This document shows, in pieces, positions 10,681-61,200 of a stretch of 64,000 nt of DNA. This DNA comes from Novosphingobium sp. (GTDB lineage: Bacteria; Pseudomonadota; Alphaproteobacteria; Sphingomonadales; Sphingomonadaceae), in assembly GCF_027531025.1 (NCBI RefSeq), contig NZ_JAPZQX010000003.1, positions 536,190-600,189 on the forward strand. The letters run 5' to 3'. Below the pieces are notes generated by a model, which was not told the origin of the DNA, made no database searches, and saw nothing but the letters and a program-made list of their open reading frames with translations. Each line of letters starts with the position of its first letter. Positions within the stretch are counted from its first letter, which is position 1. The translations under genes were made by a program, and so were the position numbers.

Positions 10681-13215
10681 ATGACCGAAGGTGCCGAATC
10701 CATCCGCCTGCGCATCCGCCGCGAAGCCGGTGGGCTGCTGACGCGGCTGCGCGAACATCCTGTGGGGGAATGGTTCCGACGCAACTGGCAGACCAGCAAG
10801 CCGTTTCGCATGGCCGGCTATGCCATTGGCGGCATGCTGCTGCTGTACTTCGTGGTCTGGGCCTCGGTGCTGCGCAACCTGCCTTCGGCCGACCGCCTGC
10901 TGAGCTATCAGCCGCCGCTGCCGACCATGGTGCGCGGGGTGAATGGCGAGATCGTCTACAGCTATGCCCGCGAAAGGCGCGTGCAGTTGCGCTTTGTCGA
11001 TTTCCCCAAGCCGCTGATCGACGCCTATCTCTCGGCTGAGGACAAGACCTTCTGGTCACACGGCGGGATCGACTTCACCGGGTTCGCCGGAGCGGTGATC
11101 GACTATGTCTCCAAGCTCGGTTCCGGTGAACGGGCGGTTGGCGGTTCGACCATCACCCAGCAGGTCGCCAAGAACATCCTGATCGGCGACGAGTATTCGA
11201 TCACCCGCAAGTTCAAGGAAATGATCCTGGCCCGCCGGATCGAGGGTGTGCTCAACAAGCAGCAGATTCTCGAGCTCTACCTTAACGAGATTCCGCTCGG
11301 TCGGCAGAGCTTCGGCGTCCAGGCTGCCGCGCGTGCCTATTTTGGCAAGGATGTGGGTGATCTCAAGCTGCACGAAGCGGCCTTCCTCGCGATCCTGCCG
11401 AAGGCTCCGGAGCGCTATGGTCGCGAAAAGTACCAGCAGCAGGCCATCGAACGGCGCAACTACGTGCTGGATCAGATGCTCGACAATGGTTGGGCCACGC
11501 CAGCGCAGGCGGCGGAAGCCAAGGCACAACCGCTGGGCCTGATCCCGCGCCAGGCCGAATCCTGGGATTCCTCGGTTGGCTACTTCGTCGAGGAAGTGCG
11601 CCGCCAGTTGATCGAGAAGTATGGCGAAACCGCCGAAGCCGGGCCGAACAGCGTCTATGCGGGCGGTCTGTGGGTGCGTACTTCACTCGATCCGCAATTG
11701 CAGAAGGCATCGCAGAACGCACTGCGCACTGGATTGGTCCGCTATCATGGCGGGCGAGCCTGGTATGGACCGCTGGCCAAGGTCGATCTCGATCCGGACA
11801 ACTGGCAGAGCCAGCTGATCGTCCAGGGCCTGTCGATATCCTACCAGAACTGGCGTGTCGGCATCGTGATCTCGCGGCAGGGCAACCAGGCGCGGATCGG
11901 CTTTGGCGATGGCAGCACGGCCGCGCTGACGGGCCTGCCCGATGGACTGCGCGCTGGCCACGTGATTGCCGCCGCGCCGATCAGCGGTTCGACCTGGACC
12001 GTCAAGACCGTGCCCGAGGTTTCGGGCGGGATGGCGGTGGTCGATCCCAATTCGGGCCGGGCCCTGGCAATCCAGGGCGGCTTCGACAGCGGCCTTGGCA
12101 GCTTCAACCGTGCCACCCAGGCCCAGCGCCAGCCGGGCTCGACGATCAAGCCGTTCGTCTATGCCGCCGGGCTTGATCAGGGCATTACGCCGGCTTCCGA
12201 AGTGCTGGACGGCACCTTCTGCGTCTATCAGGGCGCGCAACTGGGCCAGAAGTGCTTCCGTAACTTCGACATGCGCGGGGCCGGGGGCACGCATACGATG
12301 CGCTGGGGCCTTGAACAGTCGCGCAACCTGATGACCGTCCGGATCGCCAACGACGCCGGGATGGACAACGTGGTGCGCGAGATCGACCGGGTCGGTATCG
12401 GCCGCTACGCGCCTTACCTGTCGTTCGCGCTGGGGGCGGGGGAAACCACCGTGCTCAAGATGGCCAACGCCTATGCCGCCCTTGCCAACAACGGGGTGCA
12501 GTTCCCGCCAACGCTGATCGACTTCATCCAGGATCGCAACGGCAAGGTGATCTGGCGCGCCGACAGTCGCCGCTGCGAGCAGTGCAACATGGCGCGCTGG
12601 GATGGCAAGCCGATGCCGCGCCTGGCTTCCCGCGGCAAGCAGGTCATGGACCCGCGCACGGCCTTCCAGGTGGTCCACATGCTGCAGGGCGTGGTCACCC
12701 GTGGCACGGCAACGGTGCTGCGCGATCTCAACCTGCCGCTGTTCGGCAAGACCGGGACGACGACCGGACCGACCAACGTGTGGTTCGCCGGTGGTTCGCA
12801 GGATATCGTCGGGGCCGTCTATCTTGGGTTCGATCAGCCCCGCTCGCTGGGCGGCTATGCCCAGGGTGGCTCGATCGCGGCGCCGATGTTCCGGCAGTTC
12901 GTCCAGGAAAGCCGCAATCGCTGGAGCGACCGGCCCTTCGTGGCCCCCGCCAACATCCACTGGGTCAAGATCGACCGGGTAACCGGCAAGCGCGTCTTCG
13001 CTGGCGATCCGACCGATGATCCCAAGTCCGGCATCATCTGGGAGGCTTTCAAGGCGGATAGCGAGGCCCAGCGCACCACCCGGCGGGATGAACTGGCCAA
13101 GCAGCGCGACGCCCTGATCGCCGCGATCAAGCGCGGTGCCAAGGCCAGCGAAGCCGGTGAAGGGGCCGAGGCCGTGCCTTCGATCGCGGCGGACAGCAGC
13201 GTCATCATGCAGTAG
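10681..13215 (+). CDS. mrcA: Penicillin-binding protein 1A (transglycosylase/transpeptidase)
   Basis: EDKTF..HGG, GGSTITQQVAKN and RKFKE transglycosylase motifs; STIK, SRN and KTG transpeptidase motifs. Start at ATG 10681. Confidence 0.95.
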   Translation: MTEGAESIRLRIRREAGGLLTRLREHPVGEWFRRNWQTSKPFRMAGYAIGGMLLLYFVVWASVLRNLPSADRLLSYQPPLPTMVRGVNGEIVYSYARERRVQLRFVDFPKPLIDAYLSAEDKTFWSHGGIDFTGFAGAVIDYVSKLGSGERAVGGSTITQQVAKNILIGDEYSITRKFKEMILARRIEGVLNKQQILELYLNEIPLGRQSFGVQAAARAYFGKDVGDLKLHEAAFLAILPKAPERYGREKYQQQAIERRNYVLDQMLDNGWATPAQAAEAKAQPLGLIPRQAESWDSSVGYFVEEVRRQLIEKYGETAEAGPNSVYAGGLWVRTSLDPQLQKASQNALRTGLVRYHGGRAWYGPLAKVDLDPDNWQSQLIVQGLSISYQNWRVGIVISRQGNQARIGFGDGSTAALTGLPDGLRAGHVIAAAPISGSTWTVKTVPEVSGGMAVVDPNSGRALAIQGGFDSGLGSFNRATQAQRQPGSTIKPFVYAAGLDQGITPASEVLDGTFCVYQGAQLGQKCFRNFDMRGAGGTHTMRWGLEQSRNLMTVRIANDAGMDNVVREIDRVGIGRYAPYLSFALGAGETTVLKMANAYAALANNGVQFPPTLIDFIQDRNGKVIWRADSRRCEQCNMARWDGKPMPRLASRGKQVMDPRTAFQVVHMLQGVVTRGTATVLRDLNLPLFGKTGTTTGPTNVWFAGGSQDIVGAVYLGFDQPRSLGGYAQGGSIAAPMFRQFVQESRNRWSDRPFVAPANIHWVKIDRVTGKRVFAGDPTDDPKSGIIWEAFKADSEAQRTTRRDELAKQRDALIAAIKRGAKASEAGEGAEAVPSIAADSSVIMQ

Positions 13216-13236
13216 GTTCCAGCCAAGGATAGTCCC

Positions 13237-13785
13237 ATGCGCCCGATCATCCGCCGTCTCGCCGCCCTTGCCTTGCTGCTGCCGCTCGGCCAGCCCGCAT
13301 TGGCCAACCTGCCGGAAGGAGCCAAGGCTCCGACCTTTGCCACCAAGGGTGCCAAGGCCGGCAAGCCGTTTGGCTTCAACCTGGCGACTGCGCTGCGCAA
13401 GGGGCCGGTCGTGCTCTACTTCTATCCCAAGGCCTTTACCCAGGGCTGCACGCTGGAAGCCAATGCCTTTGCCGAGGCGACGCCGCAATTTGCCGCTGCC
13501 GGTGCGACCGTGATCGGGATGTCGGCCGATGACCTGCTAACGCTGCAGAAATTCTCCACCGAAGCCTGCCGCGACAAGTTTGCCGTTGCCATGGCCACCC
13601 CCGCGATCATTAAGGCCTATGATGTCGACCTGAAGCGCGAAGGTGTCTCGACCGGGCTTACCACTCGCACCAGCTACGTTATCGGCCAGGATGGTCGGGT
13701 CCGGTTCGTCCATTCGAACATGGATTATCGCGATCACGTGCGGTTGACCCTCGCCGCGGTTCAAGGGCTGCGCAAGAAGCGCTGA
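13237..13785 (+). CDS. Peroxiredoxin (BCP/AhpC-TSA family) with signal peptide
   Basis: VLYFYPKAFTQGCTLE peroxidatic motif and RTSYVIGQDG; cleavable leader ending QPALA. Confidence 0.88.
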   Translation: MRPIIRRLAALALLLPLGQPALANLPEGAKAPTFATKGAKAGKPFGFNLATALRKGPVVLYFYPKAFTQGCTLEANAFAEATPQFAAAGATVIGMSADDLLTLQKFSTEACRDKFAVAMATPAIIKAYDVDLKREGVSTGLTTRTSYVIGQDGRVRFVHSNMDYRDHVRLTLAAVQGLRKKR

Positions 13786-13872
13786 TCCGCGCCGCCGCCT
13801 TTACAATCGCCGTCCTTGCGCTAAGCGGGCGCCGCGCGGGCCATTGGCCCGGATTGATGGAGTTTCAGAATC

Positions 13873-15000
13873 ATGCGTGCCGAAGGGCAGGCCCATATCG
13901 ACCGGATCGAAGCAGCGCTCGCGCTGGTGCGCAAGTTCCTCGACTGGGACCGCGCGCTGCGGCGGCTCGACGAGCTGAATGCCCGGGTCGAGGATCCCAA
14001 GCTTTGGGATAATCCCAAGGAAGCCGAAGCGGTCATGAAGGAACGCCGCCGGCTCGAGGCGGCCGTTGGCACGGTCAATGACATCTCGACCCAGATGGCC
14101 GATGCGATCGAGTTCGTCGAACTGGGCGAAATGGAAGGCGACGAGGCCACGATCGAGGAAGGGCTCGATGCCCTGGCCCGCCTGGCTGTCCGCGCCGATG
14201 CCGACAAGGTCCAGGCCCTGCTGGCCGGTGAGGCCGATGGCAACGATACCTATATCGAAATCCACGCCGGGGCGGGCGGCACCGAAAGCCAGGACTGGGC
14301 GGAAATGCTGTTCCGCATGTATACCCGCTGGGCCGAAAAGCGCGGTTTCAAGGTCGATACCATCGAGTACCAGGCGGGCGAACAGGCGGGGATCAAGTCA
14401 GCCACGATCCTGGTCAAGGGCGAGAATGCCTATGGCTATGCCAAGACCGAAAGCGGCGTGCACCGGCTCGTCCGGATCAGCCCCTATGACAGTTCGGCCC
14501 GGCGCCACACCAGCTTCAGCTCGGTCTGGGTCTATCCGGTGATCGATGACAGCTTCTCGATCGACATCAATCCGGCCGACCTCAGGATCGACACCTATCG
14601 CGCCAGCGGCGCTGGCGGGCAGCACGTCAACACCACCGATTCCGCGGTTCGCATCACTCACGTGCCCAGCGGCATCGTGGTGGCCAGCCAGCAGGACCGC
14701 AGCCAGCACAAGAACCGCGAAATCGCGATGGGCATGCTCAAGTCGCGGCTTTACGAAGAGGAAATGCGCAAGCGCGAGGAAGCCGCCAGCGCCGAACACG
14801 CCGCCAAGACCGATATCGGCTGGGGCCACCAGATCCGTTCCTATGTCCTCCAGCCGTACCAGATGGTAAAGGACCTGCGCACCGGCGTGACCAGCCCGAC
14901 CCCGTCGGACGTGCTCGATGGTGCGCTCGACCCGTTCATGGCCGCTGCGCTGGCCCAGCGCGTGACCGGCGAGAAGGTCGACGTGGAGGATGATGATTGA
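13873..15000 (+). CDS. prfB: Peptide chain release factor 2
   Basis: GAGGQHVN (GGQ), RLVRISPYD, RRHTSF and WGHQIRSYV; a single uninterrupted frame. Confidence 0.97.
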   Translation: MRAEGQAHIDRIEAALALVRKFLDWDRALRRLDELNARVEDPKLWDNPKEAEAVMKERRRLEAAVGTVNDISTQMADAIEFVELGEMEGDEATIEEGLDALARLAVRADADKVQALLAGEADGNDTYIEIHAGAGGTESQDWAEMLFRMYTRWAEKRGFKVDTIEYQAGEQAGIKSATILVKGENAYGYAKTESGVHRLVRISPYDSSARRHTSFSSVWVYPVIDDSFSIDINPADLRIDTYRASGAGGQHVNTTDSAVRITHVPSGIVVASQQDRSQHKNREIAMGMLKSRLYEEEMRKREEAASAEHAAKTDIGWGHQIRSYVLQPYQMVKDLRTGVTSPTPSDVLDGALDPFMAAALAQRVTGEKVDVEDDD

Positions 15001-15722
15001 GAGCTTTTGCGCTCCTGGCGTCGTTAGTCCTGCTTTCGGCCTGTGGCGAGGCCGGGGATCCCGGTCGGCCTGATAGCTCGCGCGCCTTCCCGCAGGCGTG
15101 GCGACCGGTTTCCACGCTATCGGGTAACGAGTTCCGCAACGAGGATCAGCGCGACAACCTGGGCGAGGCCGAGGTGGTGATGGATCTGGCCGCCATTGGC
15201 GCCGGAACCACCGTGGCCGATATCGGGGCGGGCGAGGGCTATTACACCGTGCGCCTGGCCGAGCGGGTCGGGGCCAAGGGTCGCGTGCTGGCGCAGGATA
15301 TCGACCCCGGCGCGATCCAGCGGCTTGGCCAGCGGGTCGAGCGCGAGCGGCTCGACAATGTCTCGATCAAGACCGGCGCGCCCGACGACCCGCGCCTTCC
15401 GGCCAACAGCTTTGACCGGATCTTCCTGGTGCACATGTACCACGAAGTGACCGAACCTTATGCCTTCCTGTGGCGGATGCGCCCGGCGCTGCGGGCAGGT
15501 GGGCAGGTGATCGTGGTCGACGTCGATCGGCCGACCGACCAGCACGGCATCCCGCCGCAATTGCTGTTCTGCGAATTTCAGGCGGTGGGCTTCCGCCTCG
15601 TGGAATTTGTGCGTAGACCGGAACTCAACGGTTATTATGCGCAGTTCGAGGCGGTTGGGCCCCGGCCTGAGCCAGCCGCGATAAAGCCATGTAATACGGC
15701 CAAGGGAAAGACAGAAACATAA
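14997..15722 (+). CDS. Class I SAM-dependent methyltransferase with lipoprotein-type leader
   Basis: VADIGAGEGYY, VLAQDID and FDRIFLVHMYHEV motifs; N-terminal LLSAC lipobox; TTG start overlaps the prfB stop. Confidence 0.85.
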   Translation: MRAFALLASLVLLSACGEAGDPGRPDSSRAFPQAWRPVSTLSGNEFRNEDQRDNLGEAEVVMDLAAIGAGTTVADIGAGEGYYTVRLAERVGAKGRVLAQDIDPGAIQRLGQRVERERLDNVSIKTGAPDDPRLPANSFDRIFLVHMYHEVTEPYAFLWRMRPALRAGGQVIVVDVDRPTDQHGIPPQLLFCEFQAVGFRLVEFVRRPELNGYYAQFEAVGPRPEPAAIKPCNTAKGKTET

Positions 15723-17128
15723 TGACGTTCAAGGGGTTGACGCCGATTGTTTATGGTGGCTGCGAGGTTTGGCCGCTGGTGGAAGGCGGCAAGGGTGTCT
15801 CGGCCACGAACCACGCCAGCTCGGGCGCCTGGGCGGCGGCGGGCGGGATCGGCACGGTCAGCGCAGTCAATGCCGACAGCTATGACGCCGAAGGCAAGAT
15901 CATTCCCCAAGTCTATAATGCGATGACCCGCCGCGAACGGCACGAGGAACTGATCCGCTATGGCATCGACGGTGCCGTGGAGCAGGTGAAGCGTGCCTAC
16001 GATATCGCCAGCGGCAAGGGTGCAATCAATATCAACGTCCTGTGGGAAATGGGCGGCGCGCAGCAGATCCTCGAAGGCGTCCTGGAAAAGACCAGGGGCC
16101 TGGTGGCTGGCGTAACCTGCGGCGCGGGCATGCCGTACAAGCTGTCCGAAATCGCCGCCCGTTTTGGCGTCTACTACCTGCCGATCGTCAGTTCGGCCCG
16201 TGCCTTCCGCGCGCTCTGGAAGCGCGCCTATTCGAAGGTGCCCGAATGGCTGGGCGCGGTGGTTTACGAGGACCCCTGGCTGGCGGGCGGGCATAACGGC
16301 CTGTCGAACGCGGAAGACCCTCTCAAGCCGGAAGATCCCTATCCCCGCGTCAAGGCCCTGCGCGAAACCATGCGGGCCGAGGGTGTTTCGGAAGAGGTGC
16401 CGATCGTCATGGCCGGGGGCGTCTGGTTCCTGCGCGAATGGGAAAACTGGATCGACAATCCCGAACTCGGCAAGATTGCCTTCCAGTATGGCACCCGTCC
16501 GCTGCTGACCCAGGAAAGCCCGATCCCGCAGACCTGGAAGGACCACCTGCGCACGCTGGAGCCGGGCGACGTGTTGCTCCACCGCTTCTCGCCGACCGGT
16601 TTCTATTCCTCGGCCGTCCGCAATCCCTTCCTGCGCATGCTTGAGGCGCGCAGCGAACGCCAGGTGCCCTATTCCAAGGTCCAGGCCGGGGAACACACCG
16701 TGCAGCTCGATGTCGGGGTGCGCGGCAAGAACTTCTGGGTTGCGCCCCGTGATCTGGAACGCGCCCGCAATTGGGCGGCCCAGGGCTTCACCGAAGGGCT
16801 GCGCACGCCGGACGATACGATCGTGTTCGTATCGCCCGAGGAGCGCGGGACGATCCAGCAGGACCAGAAGGACTGCATGGGCTGCCTAAGCCACTGCGGG
16901 TTCTCGTCATGGAAGGATCATGACGATTACACCACCGGGCGCCTGGCCGATCCCCGCAGCTTCTGCATCCAGAAGACCCTGCAGGATATCGCTCATGGCG
17001 GGGACGTGGACCAGAACCTGATGTTCGCGGGTCATGCGGCCTATCGCTTCAAGCAGGACCCGTTCTATTCGAACAACTTCACCCCCTCGGTGAAGGAACT
17101 GGTCGATCGCATCCTGACCGGGGACTGA
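15722..17128 (+). CDS. Nitronate monooxygenase/FabK-FabX family FMN oxidoreductase with Cys cluster motif
   Basis: PLVEGGKG, GAGMP, PIVSSARA, LAGGHNG, PIVMAGG and QYGTRP motifs, plus CxxCxxxC-x22-C. Confidence 0.85.
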   Translation: MTFKGLTPIVYGGCEVWPLVEGGKGVSATNHASSGAWAAAGGIGTVSAVNADSYDAEGKIIPQVYNAMTRRERHEELIRYGIDGAVEQVKRAYDIASGKGAININVLWEMGGAQQILEGVLEKTRGLVAGVTCGAGMPYKLSEIAARFGVYYLPIVSSARAFRALWKRAYSKVPEWLGAVVYEDPWLAGGHNGLSNAEDPLKPEDPYPRVKALRETMRAEGVSEEVPIVMAGGVWFLREWENWIDNPELGKIAFQYGTRPLLTQESPIPQTWKDHLRTLEPGDVLLHRFSPTGFYSSAVRNPFLRMLEARSERQVPYSKVQAGEHTVQLDVGVRGKNFWVAPRDLERARNWAAQGFTEGLRTPDDTIVFVSPEERGTIQQDQKDCMGCLSHCGFSSWKDHDDYTTGRLADPRSFCIQKTLQDIAHGGDVDQNLMFAGHAAYRFKQDPFYSNNFTPSVKELVDRILTGD

Positions 17129-17137
17129 GCTGAAGAA

Positions 17138-17623
17138 TCAGGCGGCGCTGCGGCGCGGATCGGGGCCGAACCGGTTTGGCCCAGCCGTGCCCGGCAGCGC
17201 GAGCAGCAGGACCAGCGCCAGGTTGGCGAGGATCACCACCCAATCGAGGATCCACGTCATCCGGTCGAGCTCGATCTTGGCCTGCATGCCCTGTGACAGC
17301 GCGATGCCGGTCCGCACCAGCCAGACAATGAAACCGGGCAAGCCCAGCCAGACCGCCCAGCCATTGCGGCCCTGATCGTGCAGGCGCCGCACCAGCAGCG
17401 CCGGGACCGGGATTGCGAGGATCACGGTCAGTCCATTGCTGACCAGCGCGCGAACCGGATAGTCGGCCACCAGCGCAGTCACAAAAGATACCGCCAACAT
17501 CACGAAGGCAGCGGCGAGAGCGTAACTGACCAGTTCCGAACGGGTCGCCCGGCCAGCCGCAGTGAAAGCCAGCGCGACGGTGCGCCTTACCGGGACAGGT
17601 TGCGGAGCCTCGCCAGCGAGCAA
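17138..17623 (-). CDS. DUF805 (YhaH-like) membrane protein
   Basis: GRATRSE, LLVRRLHDQGRNGW and PGTAGPNRFGPDP signature segments. Confidence 0.85.
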   Translation of the reverse strand: MLAGEAPQPVPVRRTVALAFTAAGRATRSELVSYALAAAFVMLAVSFVTALVADYPVRALVSNGLTVILAIPVPALLVRRLHDQGRNGWAVWLGLPGFIVWLVRTGIALSQGMQAKIELDRMTWILDWVVILANLALVLLLALPGTAGPNRFGPDPRRSAA

Positions 17624-17634
17624 AGCGGAGTCTC

Positions 17635-18942
17635 TCAGTCCAGTTCCCAGGCGCGCTCGCCATGGCTGGTGATGTCCAGCCCTTCGCGCTCGTCATCCTC
17701 GCTGATGCGCATCGGGAAGGCGAGGCTGACCAGCACCGCGATGACCGCGCTGGCAATCGCCGACCATAGAGCCACCACCCCGACGCCAACGGCCTGGGCG
17801 GCGACCTGGTTGATCATGCCGATGCCCTCGGCATAACCTGATCCGCCAAGGTCCGCCGAAAGGAACACCCCGAGCAGCAAGGATCCGGTGATCCCGCCAA
17901 CCCCGTGAACGGCGAAGACATCGAGCGAATCGTCGATCTGCAACTTCTGTTTCACCAACTGGATCATAGGGTAGCAGACCAGCGCCGCGAGCGTGCCGAA
18001 GATGATCGCCGCGCCGGGCGAGATCAGCCCGGCAGCCGGAGTAACGGTGGCCAGCCCCGCGATCGCGCCGGTTGCGAAGCCGACCGAGGTGGGCTTGCCC
18101 ACCGAGATCCGCTCGATCAGCAGCCAGACCAGTGCGGCCACGCTGGCGGCCAGGTGGGTGTTGATGATCGCGCTGGCCGCGTCATCGCTGGCGGCGAGGG
18201 CGGAGCCACCGTTGAACCCGAACCAGCCGACCCACAGCATGGCGGCCCCGGCCATGGTCAGCGCCGGGCTGTGCGGCAGCATCAGCGTTCTGGGAAAACC
18301 CTGGCGCTTGCCGAGCAGCAGCGCGACCACCAGCGCCGAAATGCCGGCCGTGGTGTGAACCACGATCCCGCCCGCGAAATCGAGCGTGCCGATGGTCGTC
18401 GCCAGCCAGCCGTTGCCCCAAACCCAGTGCGCCACCGGGGCATAGACGATCAGGCCCCACAGCGCGCAGAACCCCACGACCCAGCCGAACCGGGCGCGAT
18501 CGACCCAGGCCCCGGCCATCAGCGCGGGCGTGATCGCCGCGAAAGTCAGCTGGAACAGCGCGAAAGTGCGCTCCGAAATCGCCAGTTCGCCGCGCAGCAG
18601 GCCCTCTGTGCCGATCAGCATCCAGGCATTGCCGGCGCCAAGCCAGCCACTGGTCACATCGCCAAAGGCCAGGGTGTACCCGGCCACGATCCAGAGGACA
18701 GACGCCATCGCCGCGATCGCGCCGACCTGAACCAGAACCGAGAGGAAGTTCCTGGCGCGGACCAGCCCGCCATAGAATAGCGCCAGGCCCGGCATGGTCA
18801 TGAACAGCACCAGTGCGGCGGAGGTCAGGATCCAGGCCGTATCGCCGGTGTCGAGGGTGCCGGGCACCAGTTCCTGGGCCAGCGCGGGGCTGGCGGCCAG
18901 CAAGGCGGTTGCCGTGACGGCCATCCGAGTAACAGTGCCCAT
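17635..18942 (-). CDS. amtB: Ammonium transporter (Amt family)
   Basis: DTAWIL, MTMPGLALFYGG, DFAGGIVVH, WFGFNGGS and DDSLDVFAVHG (twin His). Confidence 0.95.
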   Translation of the reverse strand: MGTVTRMAVTATALLAASPALAQELVPGTLDTGDTAWILTSAALVLFMTMPGLALFYGGLVRARNFLSVLVQVGAIAAMASVLWIVAGYTLAFGDVTSGWLGAGNAWMLIGTEGLLRGELAISERTFALFQLTFAAITPALMAGAWVDRARFGWVVGFCALWGLIVYAPVAHWVWGNGWLATTIGTLDFAGGIVVHTTAGISALVVALLLGKRQGFPRTLMLPHSPALTMAGAAMLWVGWFGFNGGSALAASDDAASAIINTHLAASVAALVWLLIERISVGKPTSVGFATGAIAGLATVTPAAGLISPGAAIIFGTLAALVCYPMIQLVKQKLQIDDSLDVFAVHGVGGITGSLLLGVFLSADLGGSGYAEGIGMINQVAAQAVGVGVVALWSAIASAVIAVLVSLAFPMRISEDDEREGLDITSHGERAWELD

Positions 18943-19058: not shown

Positions 19059-20078
19059 TCAGGCCCAGCCTTGCAGCACCTGGTCGGGCGGGCGGTGGCC
19101 ATCGACCCAGAAGCGGATATTGGCGATCACCTTTTCCCCGGCATGGGCGCGGCCCTCGATGGTCGCGCTGCCAAGATGCGGCAGGGTAATCACGTTGGGC
19201 AGCGCGATCAGCCGCGGATCGACCGCCGGTTCACGGGCATAGACATCAAGACCTGCACCACCCAGGTGTCCGCTTTGCAGCGCGGCGATCAGCGCTTCCT
19301 CGTCGATCAGGTCCCCGCGCGCGGTGTTGATCACGAAGGCTTCGGGCTTGAGCAGGGCCAGGCGCCTTGCGTCGAGCAGGTGGTGCGTTTCCGCGCTGGA
19401 CGGGCAGTGCAGCGAGATGATGTCGGCATCGGCCAGCAGCCGGTCGAGATCGGCCTCATAGCGCAGGCCCAGCATGGTCTCGATCGATCCGGGCAGGGGG
19501 CGGCGGTTGTGATAGACCACCTCCATCCCGAAGGCCCGCGCGCGGTGCGCCACCGCCTGTCCGATCCGGCCCATGCCGACGATCGCTAGGCGCTTGCCGC
19601 CGATCGAGCGGCCAAGCATGGCGGTAGGGGCCCAGCCGGTCCAGGCCCCGTCGCGCACCAGTCGGCTGCCTTCGCCAAGGCGGCGCGGCACCGAGAGGAT
19701 CAGCATCATCGTCAGGTCGGCGGTATCGTCGGTGAAGACGCCCGGGGTATTGGTGACGATGATCTTCTTCGCCCGCGCAGCGGCCAGGTCGATGTGCTCG
19801 ATCCCGGCGCCGAAGTTCGCGATCAGGCCCAGCCGATCACCCGCTTCCTCGATCATAGCCGCGTCGATCCGGTCGGTTACGGTCGGAACCAGCACATCGG
19901 CATCGCGCATCGCCGCGATCAGTCCGTCGCGGCCAAGCGGGGCGTCGGCGGTGTTCGTCACCACGTCGAACAGTTCGGCCATGCGCGCCTCGACCGAGGG
20001 GAGCAGGCGGCGAGTGATGTGGACGCGCGGCTTGCCGGAAACACGGCGGGCCAGGGGCGTGTCGGATACGATCGGCAT
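19059..20078 (-). CDS. D-isomer 2-hydroxyacid dehydrogenase (glyoxylate/hydroxypyruvate reductase-like)
   Basis: GMGRIG NAD-binding motif, INTARG, GLDVYAREP and PHLGSAT. Confidence 0.92.
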   Translation of the reverse strand: MPIVSDTPLARRVSGKPRVHITRRLLPSVEARMAELFDVVTNTADAPLGRDGLIAAMRDADVLVPTVTDRIDAAMIEEAGDRLGLIANFGAGIEHIDLAAARAKKIIVTNTPGVFTDDTADLTMMLILSVPRRLGEGSRLVRDGAWTGWAPTAMLGRSIGGKRLAIVGMGRIGQAVAHRARAFGMEVVYHNRRPLPGSIETMLGLRYEADLDRLLADADIISLHCPSSAETHHLLDARRLALLKPEAFVINTARGDLIDEEALIAALQSGHLGGAGLDVYAREPAVDPRLIALPNVITLPHLGSATIEGRAHAGEKVIANIRFWVDGHRPPDQVLQGWA

Positions 20079-20155
20079 GGTTATCCGCTAGGCCCGGGTG
20101 GGGCAGGCGGTCAAGCCGCTTGAACCTGCTGCCGCGCCGCCGCTATCAGCGAATC

Positions 20156-20626
20156 ATGCCGCGTAACCGAATCCTCGCCCTGTCGCTTGCCGTGCTGGCC
20201 TGGACCGCGCCGGCCAGCGCGCAGGAAATCGAAGTGCCCTACTGGGCCTCGATCCGGGCGAGCGAAGTCAACATGCGGGTGGGCCCGGCGGAGGATTACC
20301 GGATTGCCTGGGTCTATCGCCGCCAGCAACTGCCGCTCAAGGTGCTGCGGGTGAAGGATGGGTGGCGCCTGGTGCAGGATCCCGACGGGGCCAAGGGCTG
20401 GATCCTGTCGCGCTTTCTGACGCGCGAGCGCACCGCCTATGTGATCGGCAAGGAACCCGCCGAAATGCGCGCCGCCGCCGATAGCGGGGCCAAGGTCAAC
20501 TGGCGGCTTTCGCCAGGTATCGTCGGCCTGCTGGGCGATTGCGAGGAAGGCTGGTGCGAATTCACGCTGGGCCAGCGCAAGGGTTTTGTCCGGCAGGACA
20601 GGCTGTGGGGGGCAGGGGAGCCCTGA
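20156..20626 (+). CDS. Secreted tandem bacterial SH3 domain protein
   Basis: Signal peptide ending PASA, NMRVGPAEDY...GW repeat, and second domain ending GFVRQDRLWG. Confidence 0.85.
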   Translation: MPRNRILALSLAVLAWTAPASAQEIEVPYWASIRASEVNMRVGPAEDYRIAWVYRRQQLPLKVLRVKDGWRLVQDPDGAKGWILSRFLTRERTAYVIGKEPAEMRAAADSGAKVNWRLSPGIVGLLGDCEEGWCEFTLGQRKGFVRQDRLWGAGEP

Positions 20627-56554: not shown

Positions 56555-56670
56555 CGCGCTTTTCTATAGTTGGACCCGTGCGAGCCCGCGGCTTGACAAA
56601 TGCACGGGCTTCGCCTGTTAGCCCGCGCTTTCGCCCCTGCATCATTGCAGGCCGATTGGAAAGAGTTTCG

Positions 56671-58452
56671 ATGCATCTTTATCGTTCGCACACCTGCGGC
56701 GCGCTGCGCGCCAGCGATGTAGGCCAGACCATCCGCTTGTCGGGTTGGGTCCACCGCAAGCGCGACCATGGCGGCGTGCTGTTCGTCGATCTGCGCGATC
56801 ATTACGGGATGACCCAGATCGTGGCCGATGCCGACAGTCCGGCACTGCCGATCCTGGAAGGCCTGCGGGTGGAATCGGTCGTGACCATCGATGGCGAGGT
56901 CAAGGCCCGCAGCGCCGGAACGGTGAACCCCAATCTGCCGACCGGCGAGATCGAGGTCTTTGCCCGCGGTGCCACGGTGCTGAGCCGCGCCGAGGAACTG
57001 CCGCTGCCGGTGGCGGGCGAACAGGAATACCCCGAGGATATCCGCCTGCGCTACCGCTTCCTCGACCTGCGGCGCGAGACGCTGCACGCCAATATCATGA
57101 CGCGCACCGCGATCATCCGCGAAACGCGCCGCCGGATGGAAGACATCGGCTTTACCGAGTTTTCCACCCCGATCCTGACCGCCTCCAGCCCCGAAGGCGC
57201 GCGCGATTTTCTGGTGCCGAGCCGTATCCACACCGGCAAGTTCTTCGCGCTGCCGCAGGCGCCGCAGCAATACAAGCAGCTGCTGATGGTTGCCGGGTTC
57301 GATCGCTATTTCCAGATCGCCCCCTGCTTCCGTGACGAGGACCCGCGCGCCGATCGCCTGCCGGGCGAGTTCTACCAGCTCGACCTGGAAATGAGCTTCG
57401 TCACCCAGGAAGAAGTCTGGGAAACGATGGAACCGGTCATCGCCGGGATCTTCGAGAAGTTCGCGAACGGCAAGGCGGTGACCCCGGCCGGCCAGTTCCC
57501 GCGCATCCCCTATGCCAAAGCGATGCTCGACTATGGCACGGACAAGCCGGATCTGCGCAACCCGCTGATTATCCGCGACGTGACCAGCGAGTTCACCGCT
57601 TCGGGCTTTGGCCTGTTCGAGAAGATCGTCGGCACCGGCGGCGTGGTCCGCCTGATCCCGGCCCCTGACACCGCCGGGCTCAGCCGCAAGTTCTTTGACG
57701 ACATGAACGAGTGGGCGCGCGGCGAGGGCTATGCCGGGCTTGGCTATGCCACCCGCAAGGATGGCGTGTTCGGCGGTCCGATCGCCAAGAACCACGGCGA
57801 GGACAAGATGGCCGCGCTGTGGGATTCGCTCGGCCTTGGCCCCAACGACGGCGCGTTCTTCGCCGCCGGCAAGGAAGACCAGGCTGCCAAGCTGGCCGGT
57901 GCCGCGCGCAACCGCGTGGGCGAGCAGCTTGACCTGGTCGAGAAGGACGCCTTCCGCTTTTGCTGGATCATCGACTTCCCGTTCTACGAATGGGACGAGG
58001 ACGAGAAGAAGCTCGACTTCGCGCACAACCCGTTCTCGATGCCGCAGGGTGGGCTGGAAGCGCTGCAGACGCAGGATCCGCTCACAATTAAAGCGTACCA
58101 GTACGACATGGTCTGCAACGGCTATGAACTGGCGTCGGGCTCGATCCGCAACCAGCACCCGGACCTGATGGTCAAGGCCTTCGAATTGACCGGCCTGACC
58201 CAGGCCAATGTCGAGGCGCGGTTCGGCGGCATGTACCGCGCGTTCCAGTATGGCGCACCGCCGCATGGCGGGATGGCGGCCGGGGTCGATCGCATGGTCA
58301 TGCTGCTCTGCGGCGTGCAGAACCTGCGCGAGATCACGCTGTTCCCGATGAACCAGCGCGCGGAAGACCTGCTGATGGGGGCGCCTTCGCTGGCCGAACC
58401 GAAGCAGCTGCGCGAACTGGGCCTGCGGATCGTCGAGCAGCCCAAGGCATAA
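56671..58452 (+). CDS. aspS: Aspartate--tRNA ligase, probably non-discriminating (Asp/Asn)
   Basis: [27 protein letters not shown] and GAPPHGG. Start at ATG 56671. Confidence 0.96.
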
Positions 58453-58513
58453 ACGCCGCATTCAGCTTGCGTCGGCTACCCCCGTTGCGGCAATCACTGT
58501 CGCAACGAGAAGG

Positions 58514-59443
58514 GTGGAGCCGATGCGAATCAAGGGCTTGGGGCTGGCGCTGCTGGCCTGCGGATCAGCCGTGCAGGCTGAAACGCTGCGGGTGGACAAT
58601 TATACCCCGGTCCGGTCAGACGCGCTGGTCGTGCTGCGGGACATCCAGGTCGATACGCTGGGCGGCAATGTCGGTCAGGCCATGGCCCTGCAGATCGAGG
58701 ACAAGCTGCGGACGATCGATTACGGGCAGGGGCCCTGGTTCCGCGTGATTCCGGCTTCGCTGGCCAGGGGCGGCGATGCAGTGTTCCGTGGTACTGCCGA
58801 CATCGACATGCAGCGGTTCGAGAGTTCCGAAACGCGTGAGCGCTGCATCAAGGACGCGCAGAACAAGTGCACCGACCAGAAGGAAAAGTACCAGGCCAGC
58901 TGCATCCGGCGCGAGTTTTCGCTGGAGACCCGCCTGCGCCTGATCGGTCATAATGGCGAACTGCTGTGGTCGGATGACAGCAGCGAGCCCCATACGGAGA
59001 ATCGGTGCAGCGACCAGTCGGGCTATTCGCGCGGCCCGCGCGACGTCGAACGGCTGCTGATTGGGCGAGTGGTAGCGCGGATCGAGGCCGACATGGTGCC
59101 GCGCCGGGCTGTCACGGACGTTCGCGTGGACGAGAATCGGCGTGCGCTCGCCAAGGACGATGCGGAGCAGTTCAAGCGCGCGGTTCGCCATGTCCGCGAT
59201 GGCCAACCGAACGAGGCCTGCGCCTTGTGGACCCAGCTGGGCGAGCGTTATCCGGCACATCAGCCGACCCGCTTCAACCTGGGTCTCTGCGCCGAATTCA
59301 TTGGCAAGACGGCCGACGCCCGTGCCCGCTACCTAGAGGTTCTGAAGCTCAATCCGGCCCATTCCGCCGCTTCGACCGGAATCGGCCGGCTCAACCGCCG
59401 CGAACTGGCGTTGAAGCAGCTGGAAATGCGCGATGCGAGCTGA
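58514..59443 (+). CDS. Exported hypothetical protein with C-terminal TPR-like motif
   Basis: Hydrophobic leader, Cys-rich middle region, and C-terminal FNLGLCAEFIGK..DARARY.EVLKLNP. The start may be 58523. Confidence 0.7.
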   Translation: MEPMRIKGLGLALLACGSAVQAETLRVDNYTPVRSDALVVLRDIQVDTLGGNVGQAMALQIEDKLRTIDYGQGPWFRVIPASLARGGDAVFRGTADIDMQRFESSETRERCIKDAQNKCTDQKEKYQASCIRREFSLETRLRLIGHNGELLWSDDSSEPHTENRCSDQSGYSRGPRDVERLLIGRVVARIEADMVPRRAVTDVRVDENRRALAKDDAEQFKRAVRHVRDGQPNEACALWTQLGERYPAHQPTRFNLGLCAEFIGKTADARARYLEVLKLNPAHSAASTGIGRLNRRELALKQLEMRDAS

Positions 59444-59504
59444 GCGCCAGTCGCGGCAGCCATGTCTGAATATGTATGAGCTTGTGTGCTTTCCTTGCAC
59501 CCCC

Positions 59505-59533
59505 TTGCCAGCCGCCGCGCCGTTCTCTAGGGC
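59505..59533 (+). promoter_or_regulatory. Putative sigma70-type promoter of acpP
   Basis: TTGCCA-N17-TAGGGC, 45 nt upstream of acpP. Confidence 0.5.
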
Positions 59534-59578
59534 GGGGTCCAACGCTATTTCATCTGCCGTTCACGAAGGGGTAAATCC

Positions 59579-59815
59579 ATGAGCGACACCGCCGACCGGG
59601 TTAAGAAGATTGTCGTCGAGCACCTCGGCGTCGAAGCCGAAAAGGTTACTGAAGACGCGAGCTTCATCGATGACCTGGGCGCTGACAGCCTCGACATTGT
59701 CGAGCTGGTCATGGCGTTCGAAGAAGAATTCGGCGTCGAGATCCCTGACGATGCGGCTGAGAAGATCAGCACCGTTTCGGACGCGATCAAGTACATCGAC
59801 GAGAACAAGGGCTGA
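59579..59815 (+). CDS. acpP: Acyl carrier protein
   Basis: [20 protein letters not shown] phosphopantetheine site. Confidence 0.98.
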
Positions 59816-59937: not shown

Positions 59938-61200
59938 ATGCGCCGTGTTGTGGTTACCGGACTGGGCCTCGTGACCCCGCTGGGCGGGGACGTGGAAACG
60001 ACCTGGGCCAACCTGATCGCCAGCAAGTCCGGCGCGGGCCCGATTACTCGCTTCGATGCCAGCAACCAGAAGTGCACCATCGCGTGCGAGGTGAAGCCGG
60101 CCGATCACTCTTGGGGATTCGATCCCGGCCTGCGCGTCGATCACAAGATCCAGCGCCAGGTCGATCCGTTCATCATCTATGGCCTCGATGCTGCCGGGCA
60201 GGCGCTGGAAGATGCCGGTCTGGTCGATATGGACGAGGACCTGAAGCTGCGCACCGGCTGCTCGATCGGCGCCGGGATTGGCGGCCTGCCGGGGATCGAG
60301 GAAGAATCGATCGTCCTGCATGAAAAGGGTCCCTCGCGGGTCAGCCCGCACTTCGTCCATGGCCGGATCATCAACCTGATCTCGGGCCAGGTCTCGATCA
60401 AGTATGGCCTGATGGGGCCGAATCACGCGGTCGTAACTGCCTGCTCGACCGGCGCGCACTCGATTGGCGATGCCGCCCGGATGATCAAGGATGGCGATGC
60501 CGACGTGATGCTGGCGGGCGGGGCCGAAGGGACCGTCAATCCGCTAGGGATTGCCGGTTTTGCCCAGGCCCGCGCGCTCAACTGCACCTTCAACGACCGC
60601 CCCGAACAGGCCAGCCGTCCTTATGACAAGGACCGCGATGGCTTCGTGATGGGCGAGGGCGCCGGGGTGGTCGTGCTGGAAGAGTACGAGCACGCCAAGG
60701 CGCGCGGCGCGAAGATCTATGCCGAGGTGGTCGGCTATGGCCTGTCGGGCGATGCCTATCACGTCACCGCGCCGCACCCGGAAGGCAAGGGCGCCGAGCT
60801 GGCCATGCGGATGGCGCTGCGTAAGGCCGGAATGGGCCCGGGCGACATCGACTATGTCAACGCCCACGGCACCTCGACCATGGCCGACACGATCGAACTG
60901 GCCGCGGTCAAGCGCGTGCTGGGCGATGACCTGACGGGCGCTTCGATGAGCAGCACCAAGTCGGCCATCGGCCACCTGCTGGGCGGGGCCGGCGCGGTCG
61001 AGACGATCTTCTGCATCCTGGCGATCCGCGACCAGATCGTGCCGCCGACGCTGAACCTCGACAATCCGGATGAAGGCACCGAAGGTGTTGACCTGGTGCC
61101 CAAGGTGGCCCGCAAGCGCACCGTCCGGGCCGCGCTGAACAACAGTTTCGGCTTTGGCGGCACCAATGCCTCGCTGATCGTCAAGGCGCTGGTAGACTGA
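59938..61200 (+). CDS. fabF: Beta-ketoacyl-ACP synthase II
   Basis: RRVVVTGLG, TACSTG, NAHGTST, GHLLG and NNSFGFGG. Confidence 0.97.
   Translation: MRRVVVTGLGLVTPLGGDVETTWANLIASKSGAGPITRFDASNQKCTIACEVKPADHSWGFDPGLRVDHKIQRQVDPFIIYGLDAAGQALEDAGLVDMDEDLKLRTGCSIGAGIGGLPGIEEESIVLHEKGPSRVSPHFVHGRIINLISGQVSIKYGLMGPNHAVVTACSTGAHSIGDAARMIKDGDADVMLAGGAEGTVNPLGIAGFAQARALNCTFNDRPEQASRPYDKDRDGFVMGEGAGVVVLEEYEHAKARGAKIYAEVVGYGLSGDAYHVTAPHPEGKGAELAMRMALRKAGMGPGDIDYVNAHGTSTMADTIELAAVKRVLGDDLTGASMSSTKSAIGHLLGGAGAVETIFCILAIRDQIVPPTLNLDNPDEGTEGVDLVPKVARKRTVRAALNNSFGFGGTNASLIVKALVD

What the first reader, a model, noticed from the sequence alone, without database searches (positions are those of the whole stretch)
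15722..17128. FabX-like FMN/[4Fe-4S] enzyme that would usually be labelled nitronate monooxygenase
The motif order matches my recollection of Helicobacter pylori FabX (decanoyl-ACP dehydrogenase/isomerase; FMN plus [4Fe-4S]; O2-dependent unsaturated fatty acid synthesis). Matches: PLVEGGKG, GTVSAV, GAGMP, PIVSSARA, GGHNG (catalytic His), AGGVW, GTRPL, SPTG, a Cys cluster, and MFAG..AYR. The Cys motif here is CxxCxxxC-x22-C (16874-16966), preceded by an apparent extra segment of about 70 aa. The gene is coupled into the prfB operon, which suits a housekeeping role. No fabA/fabB lies near acpP-fabF in this window. Inference: this may be an uncharacterised route to unsaturated fatty acids in this lineage.
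Basis: partly seen in the sequence, partly recalled or inferred. Interest (0 to 1): 0.65.

Follow-up and report, generated by a model that had tools for sequence, protein, structure and literature searches.

The report
Long FabX-like enzyme replacing FabA/FabB
This gene, labelled "nitronate monooxygenase" in databases, is most likely the flavin/iron-sulfur enzyme that puts the double bond into membrane fatty acids in this freshwater sphingomonad and in most alphaproteobacteria, which lack the textbook fabA/fabB genes.

Summary
These include an invariant His191 and four invariant Cys in the pattern Cx2Cx3Cx22C, preceded by a ~67-aa insert.

Its closest solved relative by sequence and by fold is Helicobacter pylori FabX. 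FabK and ordinary NMOs score far lower.

The genome (99.99% complete, Sphingomonadales) has only FabZ, one FabF and one FabI. It has no FabA or FabB.

- **Order sample (151 genomes):** the gene was found in 145. FabA was found in only 3, which are exactly the three complete genomes of the window's own family without the gene. In those three, fabA-fabB-fabI sits in the same slot, after prfB and the methyltransferase gene.
- **Class sample (301 alphaproteobacterial genomes):** 185 have this gene, 102 have FabA, none has both, and 14 have neither.
- **Shared locus:** both cassettes occupy one conserved position, between pnp and a Fur-family gene.

I found no paper describing this branch. The scan has already flagged the same family on other DNA. 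No biochemistry exists for it.

The parts
15722..17128 (+). Long-form FabX-like FMN/[4Fe-4S] flavoenzyme gene (468 aa)
   Evidence: ORF. Pfam NMO PF03060, E 6e-11. Best PDB match is H. pylori FabX. AF2 model pLDDT 89.7.
16286..16300 (+). GGHNG motif with the catalytic-type His191 (codon 16292-16294)
   Evidence: Aligned with FabX His182. Invariant in 41 homologues. The role of His182 is described in PMC8626469.
16673..16873 (+). Insert of about 67 aa (residues ~318-384) that is absent from FabX; a folded alpha/beta subdomain
   Evidence: It appears as a gap in the HMMER alignments to FabX. It is confidently folded. Conserved TPD.T..FV and DQ motifs lie within it. No clear PDB fold match was found.
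16874..16966 (+). Four-Cys motif C385-x2-C388-x3-C392-x22-C415, the presumed [4Fe-4S] ligands
   Evidence: All four are invariant. C415 aligns with FabX C320. The FabX ligands C300/C304/C308/C320 are given in PMC8626469.
13873..15000 (+). prfB (release factor 2), the upstream gene on the same strand
   Evidence: Pfam PCRF + RF-1. Its stop overlaps the next gene's start.
14997..15722 (+). Methyltransferase-fold gene, overlapping both prfB and the FabX-like gene
   Evidence: Pfam methyltransferase domains. 70% identical orthologue precedes fabA-fabB-fabI in genome G051. Overlaps shown.
19059..20078 (-). 2-hydroxyacid dehydrogenase, a conserved downstream neighbour of the slot
   Evidence: Pfam. 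Found beside both cassette types across the class.
20120..20626 (+). SH3_4-domain protein, a conserved downstream neighbour of the slot
   Evidence: Pfam. Synteny shown.
59579..59815 (+). acpP (acyl carrier protein), the presumed carrier of the substrate
   Evidence: 78-aa ORF with the DSLD motif, directly upstream of fabF.
59938..61200 (+). fabF, the only long-chain ketoacyl-ACP synthase in the genome; presumed to elongate the cis-3 intermediate
   Evidence: The only strong PF00109 match in the genome. The sequence was read.

Best explanation
The gene encodes a long-form member of the FabX/UfaA group of FMN plus [4Fe-4S] flavoenzymes. It is the organism's enzyme for introducing the cis double bond of unsaturated fatty acids during type II fatty acid synthesis.

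By analogy with H. pylori FabX, the proposed mechanism is as follows. The enzyme binds medium-chain acyl-ACP (probably decanoyl-ACP) through a basic helix. It oxidises the acyl chain to trans-2-enoyl-ACP at the FMN/His191 site and isomerises it to cis-3-enoyl-ACP. Electrons pass from FMN through the Cys-bound cluster to an acceptor that has not been identified. The single FabF then elongates the cis-3 intermediate to 16:1 and 18:1(omega-7). The resident FabZ and FabI run the saturated cycle.

Shown here: the fold, conservation of the cofactor and catalytic residues, absence of FabA/FabB, mutual exclusion with FabA, and positional replacement by fabA-fabB-fabI.

Inferred: the substrate, both chemical steps, cluster binding, and the electron acceptor.
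For: 1. **Family.** PF03060 match. FabX is the best solved relative by sequence (E 2.9e-19; profile E 8e-33). It is also the best by fold (TM 0.74-0.79 on FabX length, ahead of FabK).

2. **Residues.** FabX FMN contacts N99, E175, G220/G221, Q240 and T243, and catalytic H182, align with N105, E183, G232/G233, Q255, T258 and H191. All of these are invariant except G233, which is nearly invariant (at least 90%). FabX's basic ACP-docking helix residues (K152, K155, K159, R160, R164) align with R160, R163, K167, R168 and K172. Four Cys are invariant.

3. **Genome content.** Only FabZ, one FabF and one FabI are present. There is no FabA or FabB. This mirrors H. pylori.

4. **Order-level distribution.** The gene was found in 145 of 151 genomes, and in 126 of 130 high-quality ones. 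FabA was found in 3 of 151, which are exactly the three complete genomes of the window's family without the gene.

5. **Local swap.** In those three genomes, fabA (TIGR01749, 258 bits, above the 238 cut-off), fabB (KAS I model, 624 bits, just under the 630 cut-off) and fabI lie right after prfB and the 70%-identical methyltransferase gene. That is this gene's slot.

6. **Class-level distribution.** Of 301 genomes, 185 have the gene, 102 have FabA, 0 have both and 14 have neither.

7. **Shared locus.** In 40 loci from other families the usual order is infB-rbfA-truB-rpsO-pnp, then this gene, then a Fur-family gene and rubrerythrin. In 20 FabA loci, fabA-fabB-fabI fills the same gap between pnp and the Fur-family gene.

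8. **Conservation.** The protein is 57-89% identical across the order and class, a housekeeping-like level.

9. **An open gap in the literature.** Novosphingobium is rich in unsaturated fatty acids (PMC13318209). Acetobacter pasteurianus makes mainly cis-vaccenate yet lacks FabA/FabB, by a route called unclear (PMC6915089).
Against: - There is no experimental datum for any member of this branch.
- The protein is far from FabX. It sits on a long stem in the tree, and only residues 16-309 align by phmmer.
- The Cys spacing differs from FabX (Cx2Cx3Cx22C against Cx3Cx3Cx11C).
- A 67-aa insert sits next to the cluster, so cluster geometry, redox partner or substrate may differ.
- The gene has no fab genes as neighbours in this window or in the commonest class-wide arrangement.
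- The genome holds two FA_desaturase-superfamily genes of unknown specificity, so an oxygen-dependent route is not excluded.
- The mutual-exclusion statistic is not corrected for shared ancestry.
- The replaced cassette also contains fabI, so the exclusion is with a three-gene cassette, not with FabA alone.
Confidence: 0.75

Rival explanations
1. The protein works in unsaturated fatty acid synthesis, but only as an isomerase or with different chemistry. For example, it could convert the trans-2-decenoyl-ACP made by FabZ to cis-3, as FabM does. In that case the flavin and cluster would be structural or regulatory, and there would be no dehydrogenation ('backtracking') step.
For: FabZ already supplies trans-2-enoyl-ACP. 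PMC8626469 reports that isomerisation by FabX needs no oxygen and follows from the tunnel shape. The distribution evidence fits this reading equally well.
Against: All FMN-contact residues, the catalytic His and four Cys are invariant across the class. This argues that redox chemistry is kept. In FabX the Cys mutants lose activity.
Confidence: 0.1
2. It is a FabK-like enoyl-ACP reductase, or a second reductase. Its exclusion with the fabA-fabB-fabI cassette would then reflect the fabI in that cassette.
For: FabK is the second-best structural match (E 3e-14). The alternative cassette includes fabI.
Against: The FabK model TIGR03151 scores 25 bits against a cut-off of 453. The C-terminal region carries four invariant Cys where FabK has its NAD(P)H site. 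The genome keeps a resident FabI, as do the FabA-type sister genomes, which therefore have two. A reductase would not explain how unsaturated fatty acids are made without FabA.
Confidence: 0.04
3. Unsaturated fatty acids are made here by an oxygen-dependent membrane desaturase, and this protein has some other conserved lipid or redox function.
For: Two FA_desaturase-superfamily ORFs are present: L003:1090-2217 and L004:1297-2370. Sphingomonads are aerobes.
Against: Neither ORF reaches a curated desaturase model. One resembles carotene hydroxylase CrtR only weakly (85 bits against a cut-off of 475), and the other matches no model. One is present in both FabX-like and FabA-type sister genomes, and the other only in this genome, so neither tracks the switch. 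This reading does not explain the 0-of-287 overlap with FabA or the shared slot.
Confidence: 0.06
4. It is a true nitronate monooxygenase or another unrelated flavin oxidoreductase, as annotated.
For: The Pfam NMO match and the database names.
Against: The genome has four ordinary NMO paralogues that score 151-220 bits on PF03060, against 36-43 bits for this protein. The tree separates it from them with 100 support. Solved NMOs score E 0.005 or worse against the family profile. No NMO is known to carry a C-terminal Fe-S subdomain (PMC8626469).
Confidence: 0.05

Closest known systems
Helicobacter pylori FabX (HP0773; PDB 7E1Q/7E1R/7E1S, 9LT5). It is an FMN/[4Fe-4S] enzyme that dehydrogenates decanoyl-ACP and isomerises trans-2 to cis-3.
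   Same: Both have an NMO-type TIM barrel. The FMN-contact residues and catalytic His are conserved, as is the basic ACP-docking helix. Both have a C-terminal four-Cys subdomain in place of FabK's NAD(P)H site. Both occur in genomes with FabZ and FabF but without FabA/FabB.
   Different: This protein is 468 aa against 363 aa for FabX. It has a ~67-aa folded insert directly before the Cys triad. Its Cys spacing is Cx2Cx3Cx22C against Cx3Cx3Cx11C. M24 in the GGMG loop is replaced by an invariant Lys. It forms a separate clade on a long stem. Its host is a strict aerobe from fresh water, not a microaerophile. Its activity and electron acceptor are untested.
Neisseria gonorrhoeae UfaA (NGO1024) and the short FabX-type proteins of other Pseudomonadota
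   Same: These belong to the same Fe-S-bearing branch of the NMO superfamily. Short forms fetched here (367-422 aa) match FabX over their full length (E 8e-77 and 7e-54). They group with the long form and away from ordinary NMOs. UfaA is reported to be needed for anaerobic unsaturated fatty acid synthesis (cited in PMC11300592).
   Different: The short forms lack the insert. They use Cx3Cx3C(xC)x7C or Cx5Cx3Cx12C spacing. I could not read the UfaA paper, and no UfaA sequence was in hand.
FabA/FabB (E. coli-type anaerobic route; fabA-fabB-fabI cassette of other Alphaproteobacteria)
   Same: They fill the same inferred pathway role and literally the same chromosomal slot. Their distribution is mutually exclusive with this gene.
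   Different: There is no homology. FabA is a hot-dog-fold dehydratase/isomerase acting on 3-hydroxydecanoyl-ACP with no redox step, and it needs the dedicated synthase FabB.
FabK (enoyl-ACP reductase II)
   Same: FabK shares the same superfamily and barrel, binds FMN and acts on an acyl-ACP substrate. It is the second-best fold match.
   Different: FabK has an NAD(P)H site and no Fe-S subdomain, and it catalyses the opposite reaction. The TIGR03151 score is 25 against a cut-off of 453.

Membership tests
FabX/UfaA-type acyl-ACP dehydrogenase/isomerase | NMO-type FMN TIM barrel, with FabX as nearest characterised relative rather than FabK or NMO | tested here: met
   PF03060 E 6e-11. FabX scores E 2.9e-19 by phmmer and 8e-33 by profile; the best NMO scores 0.005 and no FabK reaches 0.01. 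Foldseek ranks FabX first. The tree separates it from NMO paralogues. No FabK sequence was in the tree.
FabX/UfaA-type acyl-ACP dehydrogenase/isomerase | FMN-contact residues and catalytic His (FabX N99, E175, H182, G220/221, Q240, T243) | tested here: met
   They align with N105, E183, H191, G232/233, Q255 and T258. All are invariant in 41 sequences except G233, which is nearly invariant (at least 90%). The FabX residue list comes from PMC8626469.
FabX/UfaA-type acyl-ACP dehydrogenase/isomerase | Four conserved Cys in a C-terminal subdomain (ligands of the [4Fe-4S] cluster) | tested here: met
   C385, C388, C392 and C415 are invariant. C415 and the following CI...L...FxG..YR stretch align with the FabX C320 region.
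FabX/UfaA-type acyl-ACP dehydrogenase/isomerase | FabX Cys spacing (Cx3Cx3Cx11C) and compact ~363-aa architecture | tested here: not met
   The spacing here is Cx2Cx3Cx22C, with a ~67-aa insert before the triad and a total length of 468 aa. Short forms from other Pseudomonadota keep FabX-like spacing.
FabX/UfaA-type acyl-ACP dehydrogenase/isomerase | Basic helix that docks ACP (FabX K152, K155, K159, R160, R164) | tested here: met
   These align with R160, R163, K167, R168 and K172. R160 and R168 are nearly invariant. This is sequence-level evidence only.
FabX/UfaA-type acyl-ACP dehydrogenase/isomerase | Genome lacks FabA/FabB and relies on FabZ plus FabF | tested here: met
   There is also 0 overlap with FabA in 301 genomes.
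FabX/UfaA-type acyl-ACP dehydrogenase/isomerase | Binds FMN and a [4Fe-4S] cluster; converts decanoyl-ACP to cis-3-decenoyl-ACP | not testable with these tools
   This needs protein purification, metal and flavin analysis, and an acyl-ACP assay.
FabK (enoyl-ACP reductase II) | Match to the FabK equivalog model; NAD(P)H-binding region without an Fe-S subdomain | tested here: not met
   TIGR03151 scores 25.1 bits against a cut-off of 453.1, over residues 225-317 only. The C-terminus carries the four-Cys subdomain.
Nitronate monooxygenase (as annotated) | Groups with characterised or ordinary NMOs | tested here: not met
   It is separated from the genome's four NMO paralogues with SH-aLRT 100. 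It scores 36-43 bits on PF03060 against their 151-220 bits. Solved NMOs score E 0.005 or worse. Nitronate activity itself cannot be tested here.

The most novel reading that the evidence does not exclude
The ~67-aa insert and the re-spaced Cys ligands may adapt the [4Fe-4S] cluster to hand electrons to a cellular acceptor other than O2, such as a quinone, ferredoxin or flavoprotein. The long form would then be a desaturation route that does not depend on oxygen and makes no superoxide, and that works in strict aerobes and anaerobes alike. It would also be the main, and possibly ancestral, unsaturated fatty acid route of Alphaproteobacteria, with fabA-fabB-fabI as a mobile cassette that has replaced it repeatedly at one locus.
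Probability: 0.25. Interest if true: 0.75.

Novelty: new variant of a known kind. Interest (0 to 1): 0.62.

Why it matters
How alphaproteobacteria without FabA/FabB make their dominant cis-vaccenate is an acknowledged gap. A genome-scale model of Acetobacter pasteurianus had to insert FabA/FabB reactions without any gene to support them (PMC6915089).

If this protein is the missing enzyme, several things follow:
- One mislabelled 'nitronate monooxygenase' would explain unsaturated fatty acid synthesis in about 60% of the sampled alphaproteobacterial genomes, sphingomonads among them.
- It would correct thousands of annotations and the metabolic models built on them.
- It would give a natural, repeated swap between two unrelated solutions at one locus, which is useful for studying non-orthologous gene displacement.
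- It would offer a FabX variant whose insert may reveal the physiological electron acceptor, an open question for UfaA/FabX.

Tried and rejected
- **ACP docking.** Complex prediction of the protein with the window's AcpP, FMN and a 4Fe-4S cluster gave no answer (score 0.18, mark 0.32). This is evidence neither for nor against binding.
- **Fold of the insert.** I modelled residues 296-468 alone and searched 48,161 PDB representatives. The best match was Z 5.2 over 56 residues, to an unrelated type IV secretion protein. No fold can be named, and this does not show that the fold is new.
- **Tree.** No FabK, H. pylori FabX or UfaA sequence could be obtained through the tools. The tree therefore holds only long forms, short FabX-type proteins from other Pseudomonadota, and this genome's own NMO paralogues.
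- **Literature.** No paper in the held library links FabX to Alphaproteobacteria or sphingomonads. The two founding papers (PMC3192263, PMC5215899) are not held, so a mention there cannot be excluded.
- **Promoter and terminator scan of 13100-17800.** It found no promoter-like site, and one terminator-like site on the minus strand inside prfB, which is fewer than in shuffles. It is uninformative.
- **RNA.** Only contigs from four freshwater and biofilm RNA libraries could be laid on the region. Pieces 93-99% alike, from relatives, cover parts of the gene (for example 16166-16837 and 15713-16013). This is at most a weak hint of transcription in relatives. Parts without cover mean nothing.
- **NCBIfam.** No FabX model matched the protein.
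- **Desaturase-like ORFs.** They could not be assigned a specificity.
Full report
**The gene and the observation**

Window 15722-17128 (+) is a 468-aa ORF with an ATG start.

The stop of prfB (13873-15000) overlaps the TTG start of a methyltransferase-fold gene (14997-15722; TTGA). That gene's stop overlaps the ATG of the ORF (TAATG). The three genes are therefore packed head to tail. This fits co-transcription but does not prove it, and the promoter/terminator scan was uninformative.

**The organism**

The window is 64-66% G+C. It lies in a 2.94-Mb genome of 10 contigs that is 99.99% complete. Homologues at 86-89% identity carry names such as Novosphingobium, Altererythrobacter and Sphingomonadales. 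The DNA is held by lake-water and other freshwater metagenome runs.

**What the protein resembles**

- Pfam gives only the NMO superfamily (PF03060, E 6e-11).
- NCBIfam gives nothing useful. The FabK model scores 25 bits against a cut-off of 453.
- Among solved structures the best sequence match is H. pylori FabX (7E1Q and later entries; E 2.9e-19 over residues 16-309). FabK scores E of about 0.1.
- A profile of five long-form homologues raises FabX to E 8e-33. It adds a second aligned stretch that pairs C415 and the following CI...L...FxG..YR with the FabX C320 region. The best NMO scores 0.005.
- An AlphaFold2 model built on 41 homologues is confident (pLDDT 89.7, pTM 0.88). Foldseek ranks five FabX entries first (E 5e-22 to 1e-19, TM 0.74-0.79 on the FabX length) and FabK next (3e-14).

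**Residue-level comparison**

I read the HMMER alignment in FabX numbering (chain 9LT5) against the residues named in PMC8626469.

| FabX | This protein | Conservation in 41 sequences |
|---|---|---|
| N99 | N105 | invariant |
| E175 | E183 | invariant |
| H182 | H191 | invariant |
| G220/G221 | G232/G233 | G232 invariant, G233 at least 90% |
| Q240 | Q255 | invariant |
| T243 | T258 | invariant |

- The basic helix that docks ACP in FabX (K152, K155, K159, R160, R164) aligns with R160, R163, K167, R168 and K172.
- The four Cys are invariant.
- The differences are a ~67-aa insert (about 318-384) directly before the Cys triad, a different Cys spacing (FabX has Cx3Cx3Cx11C), and an invariant Lys where FabX has M24.
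- The insert is predicted as a compact alpha/beta subdomain. It found no clear fold relative.

**Place in the family**

Short relatives fetched from other Pseudomonadota (367-422 aa) carry either Cx3Cx3C(xC)x7C or Cx5Cx3Cx12C. They match FabX over their full length (E 8e-77 and 7e-54).

In a maximum-likelihood tree the long forms are one clade (SH-aLRT 100) on a long stem. All Fe-S-bearing forms are split from this genome's four ordinary NMO paralogues with support 100. No FabK, FabX or UfaA reference sequence could be obtained for the tree.

**The rest of the pathway in this genome**

- There is a single PF07977 match, which is FabZ next to bamA-skp.
- There is a single strong ketoacyl synthase, fabF, beside acpP in the window.
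- There is one FabI.
- The FabA model gives no match.
- Two FA_desaturase-superfamily ORFs exist, but neither reaches a curated desaturase model.
- One of these ORFs is present in sister genomes of both cassette types, and the other only in this genome, so neither tracks the switch.

**Distribution in the order**

Of 151 genomes sampled from the order, 145 have the gene as a single full-length copy. Among high-quality genomes the count is 126 of 130.

The FabA model matches 3 of the 151 genomes: G051, G098 and G134. These are exactly the three complete genomes of the window's own family that lack the gene. They also show a second PF07977 match of about 150 bits.

In all three, fabA, fabB and fabI lie directly after prfB and the methyltransferase gene, with the 2-hydroxyacid dehydrogenase gene further downstream. 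In G051 the scores are:
- fabA: TIGR01749, 258 bits, above the 238 cut-off.
- fabB: KAS I model, 624 bits, just under the 630 cut-off.
- methyltransferase gene: 70% identical to the window's copy.

This is the same slot, filled by the textbook genes. The three genomes carry two FabI copies, the resident one plus the cassette copy.

**Distribution in the class**

In 301 alphaproteobacterial genomes at least 90% complete, drawn evenly over the class's families, the counts are:

| State | Genomes |
|---|---|
| Long-form gene (58-68% identity, full length) | 185 |
| FabA | 102 |
| Both | 0 |
| Neither | 14 |

- At least three of the 'neither' genomes are small (0.5-1.6 Mb).
- Fisher's test gives p = 1.7e-65. 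Relatives are not independent, so this figure overstates the case. However, switches occur within single families (f1, f15, f110).
- One genome in this tally (G182) is unpublished, and no claim depends on it.
- The long form also occurs at about 60% identity in two families that the tool lists as the same phylum but not the same class.

**One locus, two cassettes**

- In 40 loci from other families the commonest order is infB-rbfA-truB-rpsO-pnp, then the FabX-like gene. A Fur-family gene and rubrerythrin often follow, with the 2-hydroxyacid dehydrogenase and SH3_4 genes nearby.
- In 20 FabA loci from 20 families, fabA-fabB-fabI lies in the same gap between pnp and the Fur-family gene, with the same flanks. 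Examples are L157, L158, L154, L166, L152 and L163.
- In the Novosphingobium/erythrobacter-like part of the order the gene has moved to sit behind prfB (37-41 of 80 loci). The downstream neighbours are kept much more widely.

**Interpretation**

Two unrelated gene sets never co-occur, replace one another at one conserved locus, and have done so again recently within one family at a derived locus. They are therefore very likely functional alternatives.

Together with the FabX-like fold and residues, the best reading is a long-form FabX-type acyl-ACP dehydrogenase/isomerase that starts unsaturated fatty acid synthesis, with FabF elongating the product.

- The reductase rival is weak because a resident FabI is always present.
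- The NMO rival is weak because of the tree and the scores.
- The desaturase rival does not explain the exclusion.
- Whether the enzyme dehydrogenates as well as isomerises, which chain length it takes, whether it binds a cluster, and what accepts the electrons are all inferred.

**Known or new**

- No paper in the held library connects FabX with Alphaproteobacteria. The two founding papers could not be read.
- PMC8626469 counts only homologues above 50% identity, most of them from bacteria living under anaerobic conditions.
- PMC6915089 states that Acetobacter pasteurianus lacks FabA/FabB although cis-vaccenate is its main fatty acid, and calls the route unclear.
- The scan itself has flagged this family before on other DNA. 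One follow-up reached the same pnp/irr-slot conclusion (e1-5249127), and another found the long branch inside a fab operon (e1-1211271). I read these notes after my own tests and they agree with them.

I class this as a new variant of a known kind: an uncharacterised, structurally distinct branch of FabX.

**Weak or null results**

- RNA-library contigs from relatives cover parts of the gene.
- The complex prediction with ACP gave no answer.

Noticed in passing
P0137 (476 aa): This is a 40%-identical long-form homologue from a JGI metagenome. It shows W wherever the family has invariant G (for example 'TAWWHNG' for 'LAGGHNG'). This suggests a UGA=Gly (code 25, Gracilibacteria/SR1-type) genome translated with UGA=Trp. 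The long form therefore seems to exist in candidate-phyla-radiation bacteria too.
   Followed up: no
window 14997-15722 (+): A methyltransferase-fold gene is wedged between prfB and the FabX-like gene, overlapping both. A first-reader note (e1-5196517) reports a lipoprotein-type leader on it. The gene stays in place (70% identity) in genomes where fabA-fabB-fabI has replaced the FabX-like gene, so it belongs to the locus and not to the cassette.
   Followed up: partly
L002 (G000:C7:317698-321072) and L004:2375-3472: FabZ follows bamA and skp directly, without lpxD/lpxA between them. This fits sphingomonads lacking LPS (from my own knowledge). Yet a clear LptG (TIGR04408, 302 bits) is encoded next to one of the desaturase-like genes.
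   Followed up: no
L169-L185 (other Pseudomonadota): Short FabX-type proteins fall into two Cys-spacing classes: Cx3Cx3C(xC)x7C (367-390 aa) and Cx5Cx3Cx12C (388-422 aa). Each class is one side of a branch in the tree. With the long form there are at least three cluster-motif variants in this group.
   Followed up: partly
L109-L168 (class-wide loci): A Fur-family gene (possibly irr) and a rubrerythrin gene flank the slot, whichever cassette (FabX-like or fabA-fabB-fabI) fills it. The link of iron and peroxide genes is therefore with the locus rather than with the Fe-S enzyme.
   Followed up: partly
families f198 and f223: Dozens of 1.6-3 Mb genomes that the tool lists as the same phylum but not the same class carry the long form at 58-63% identity. 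Either the class boundary used by the tool splits traditional Alphaproteobacteria, or the gene reaches beyond them.
   Followed up: no
window 56578-59815: acpP-fabF is not preceded here by fabD-fabG. Upstream lie aspS (56578-58452) and a 309-aa ORF (58514-59443) that I did not annotate.
   Followed up: no
L003:1090-2217 (G000:C9): A 375-aa FA_desaturase-superfamily ORF resembles carotene hydroxylase CrtR only weakly. It is present in this genome but in none of the four sister genomes checked, so it looks like an accessory gene of unknown specificity.
   Followed up: partly
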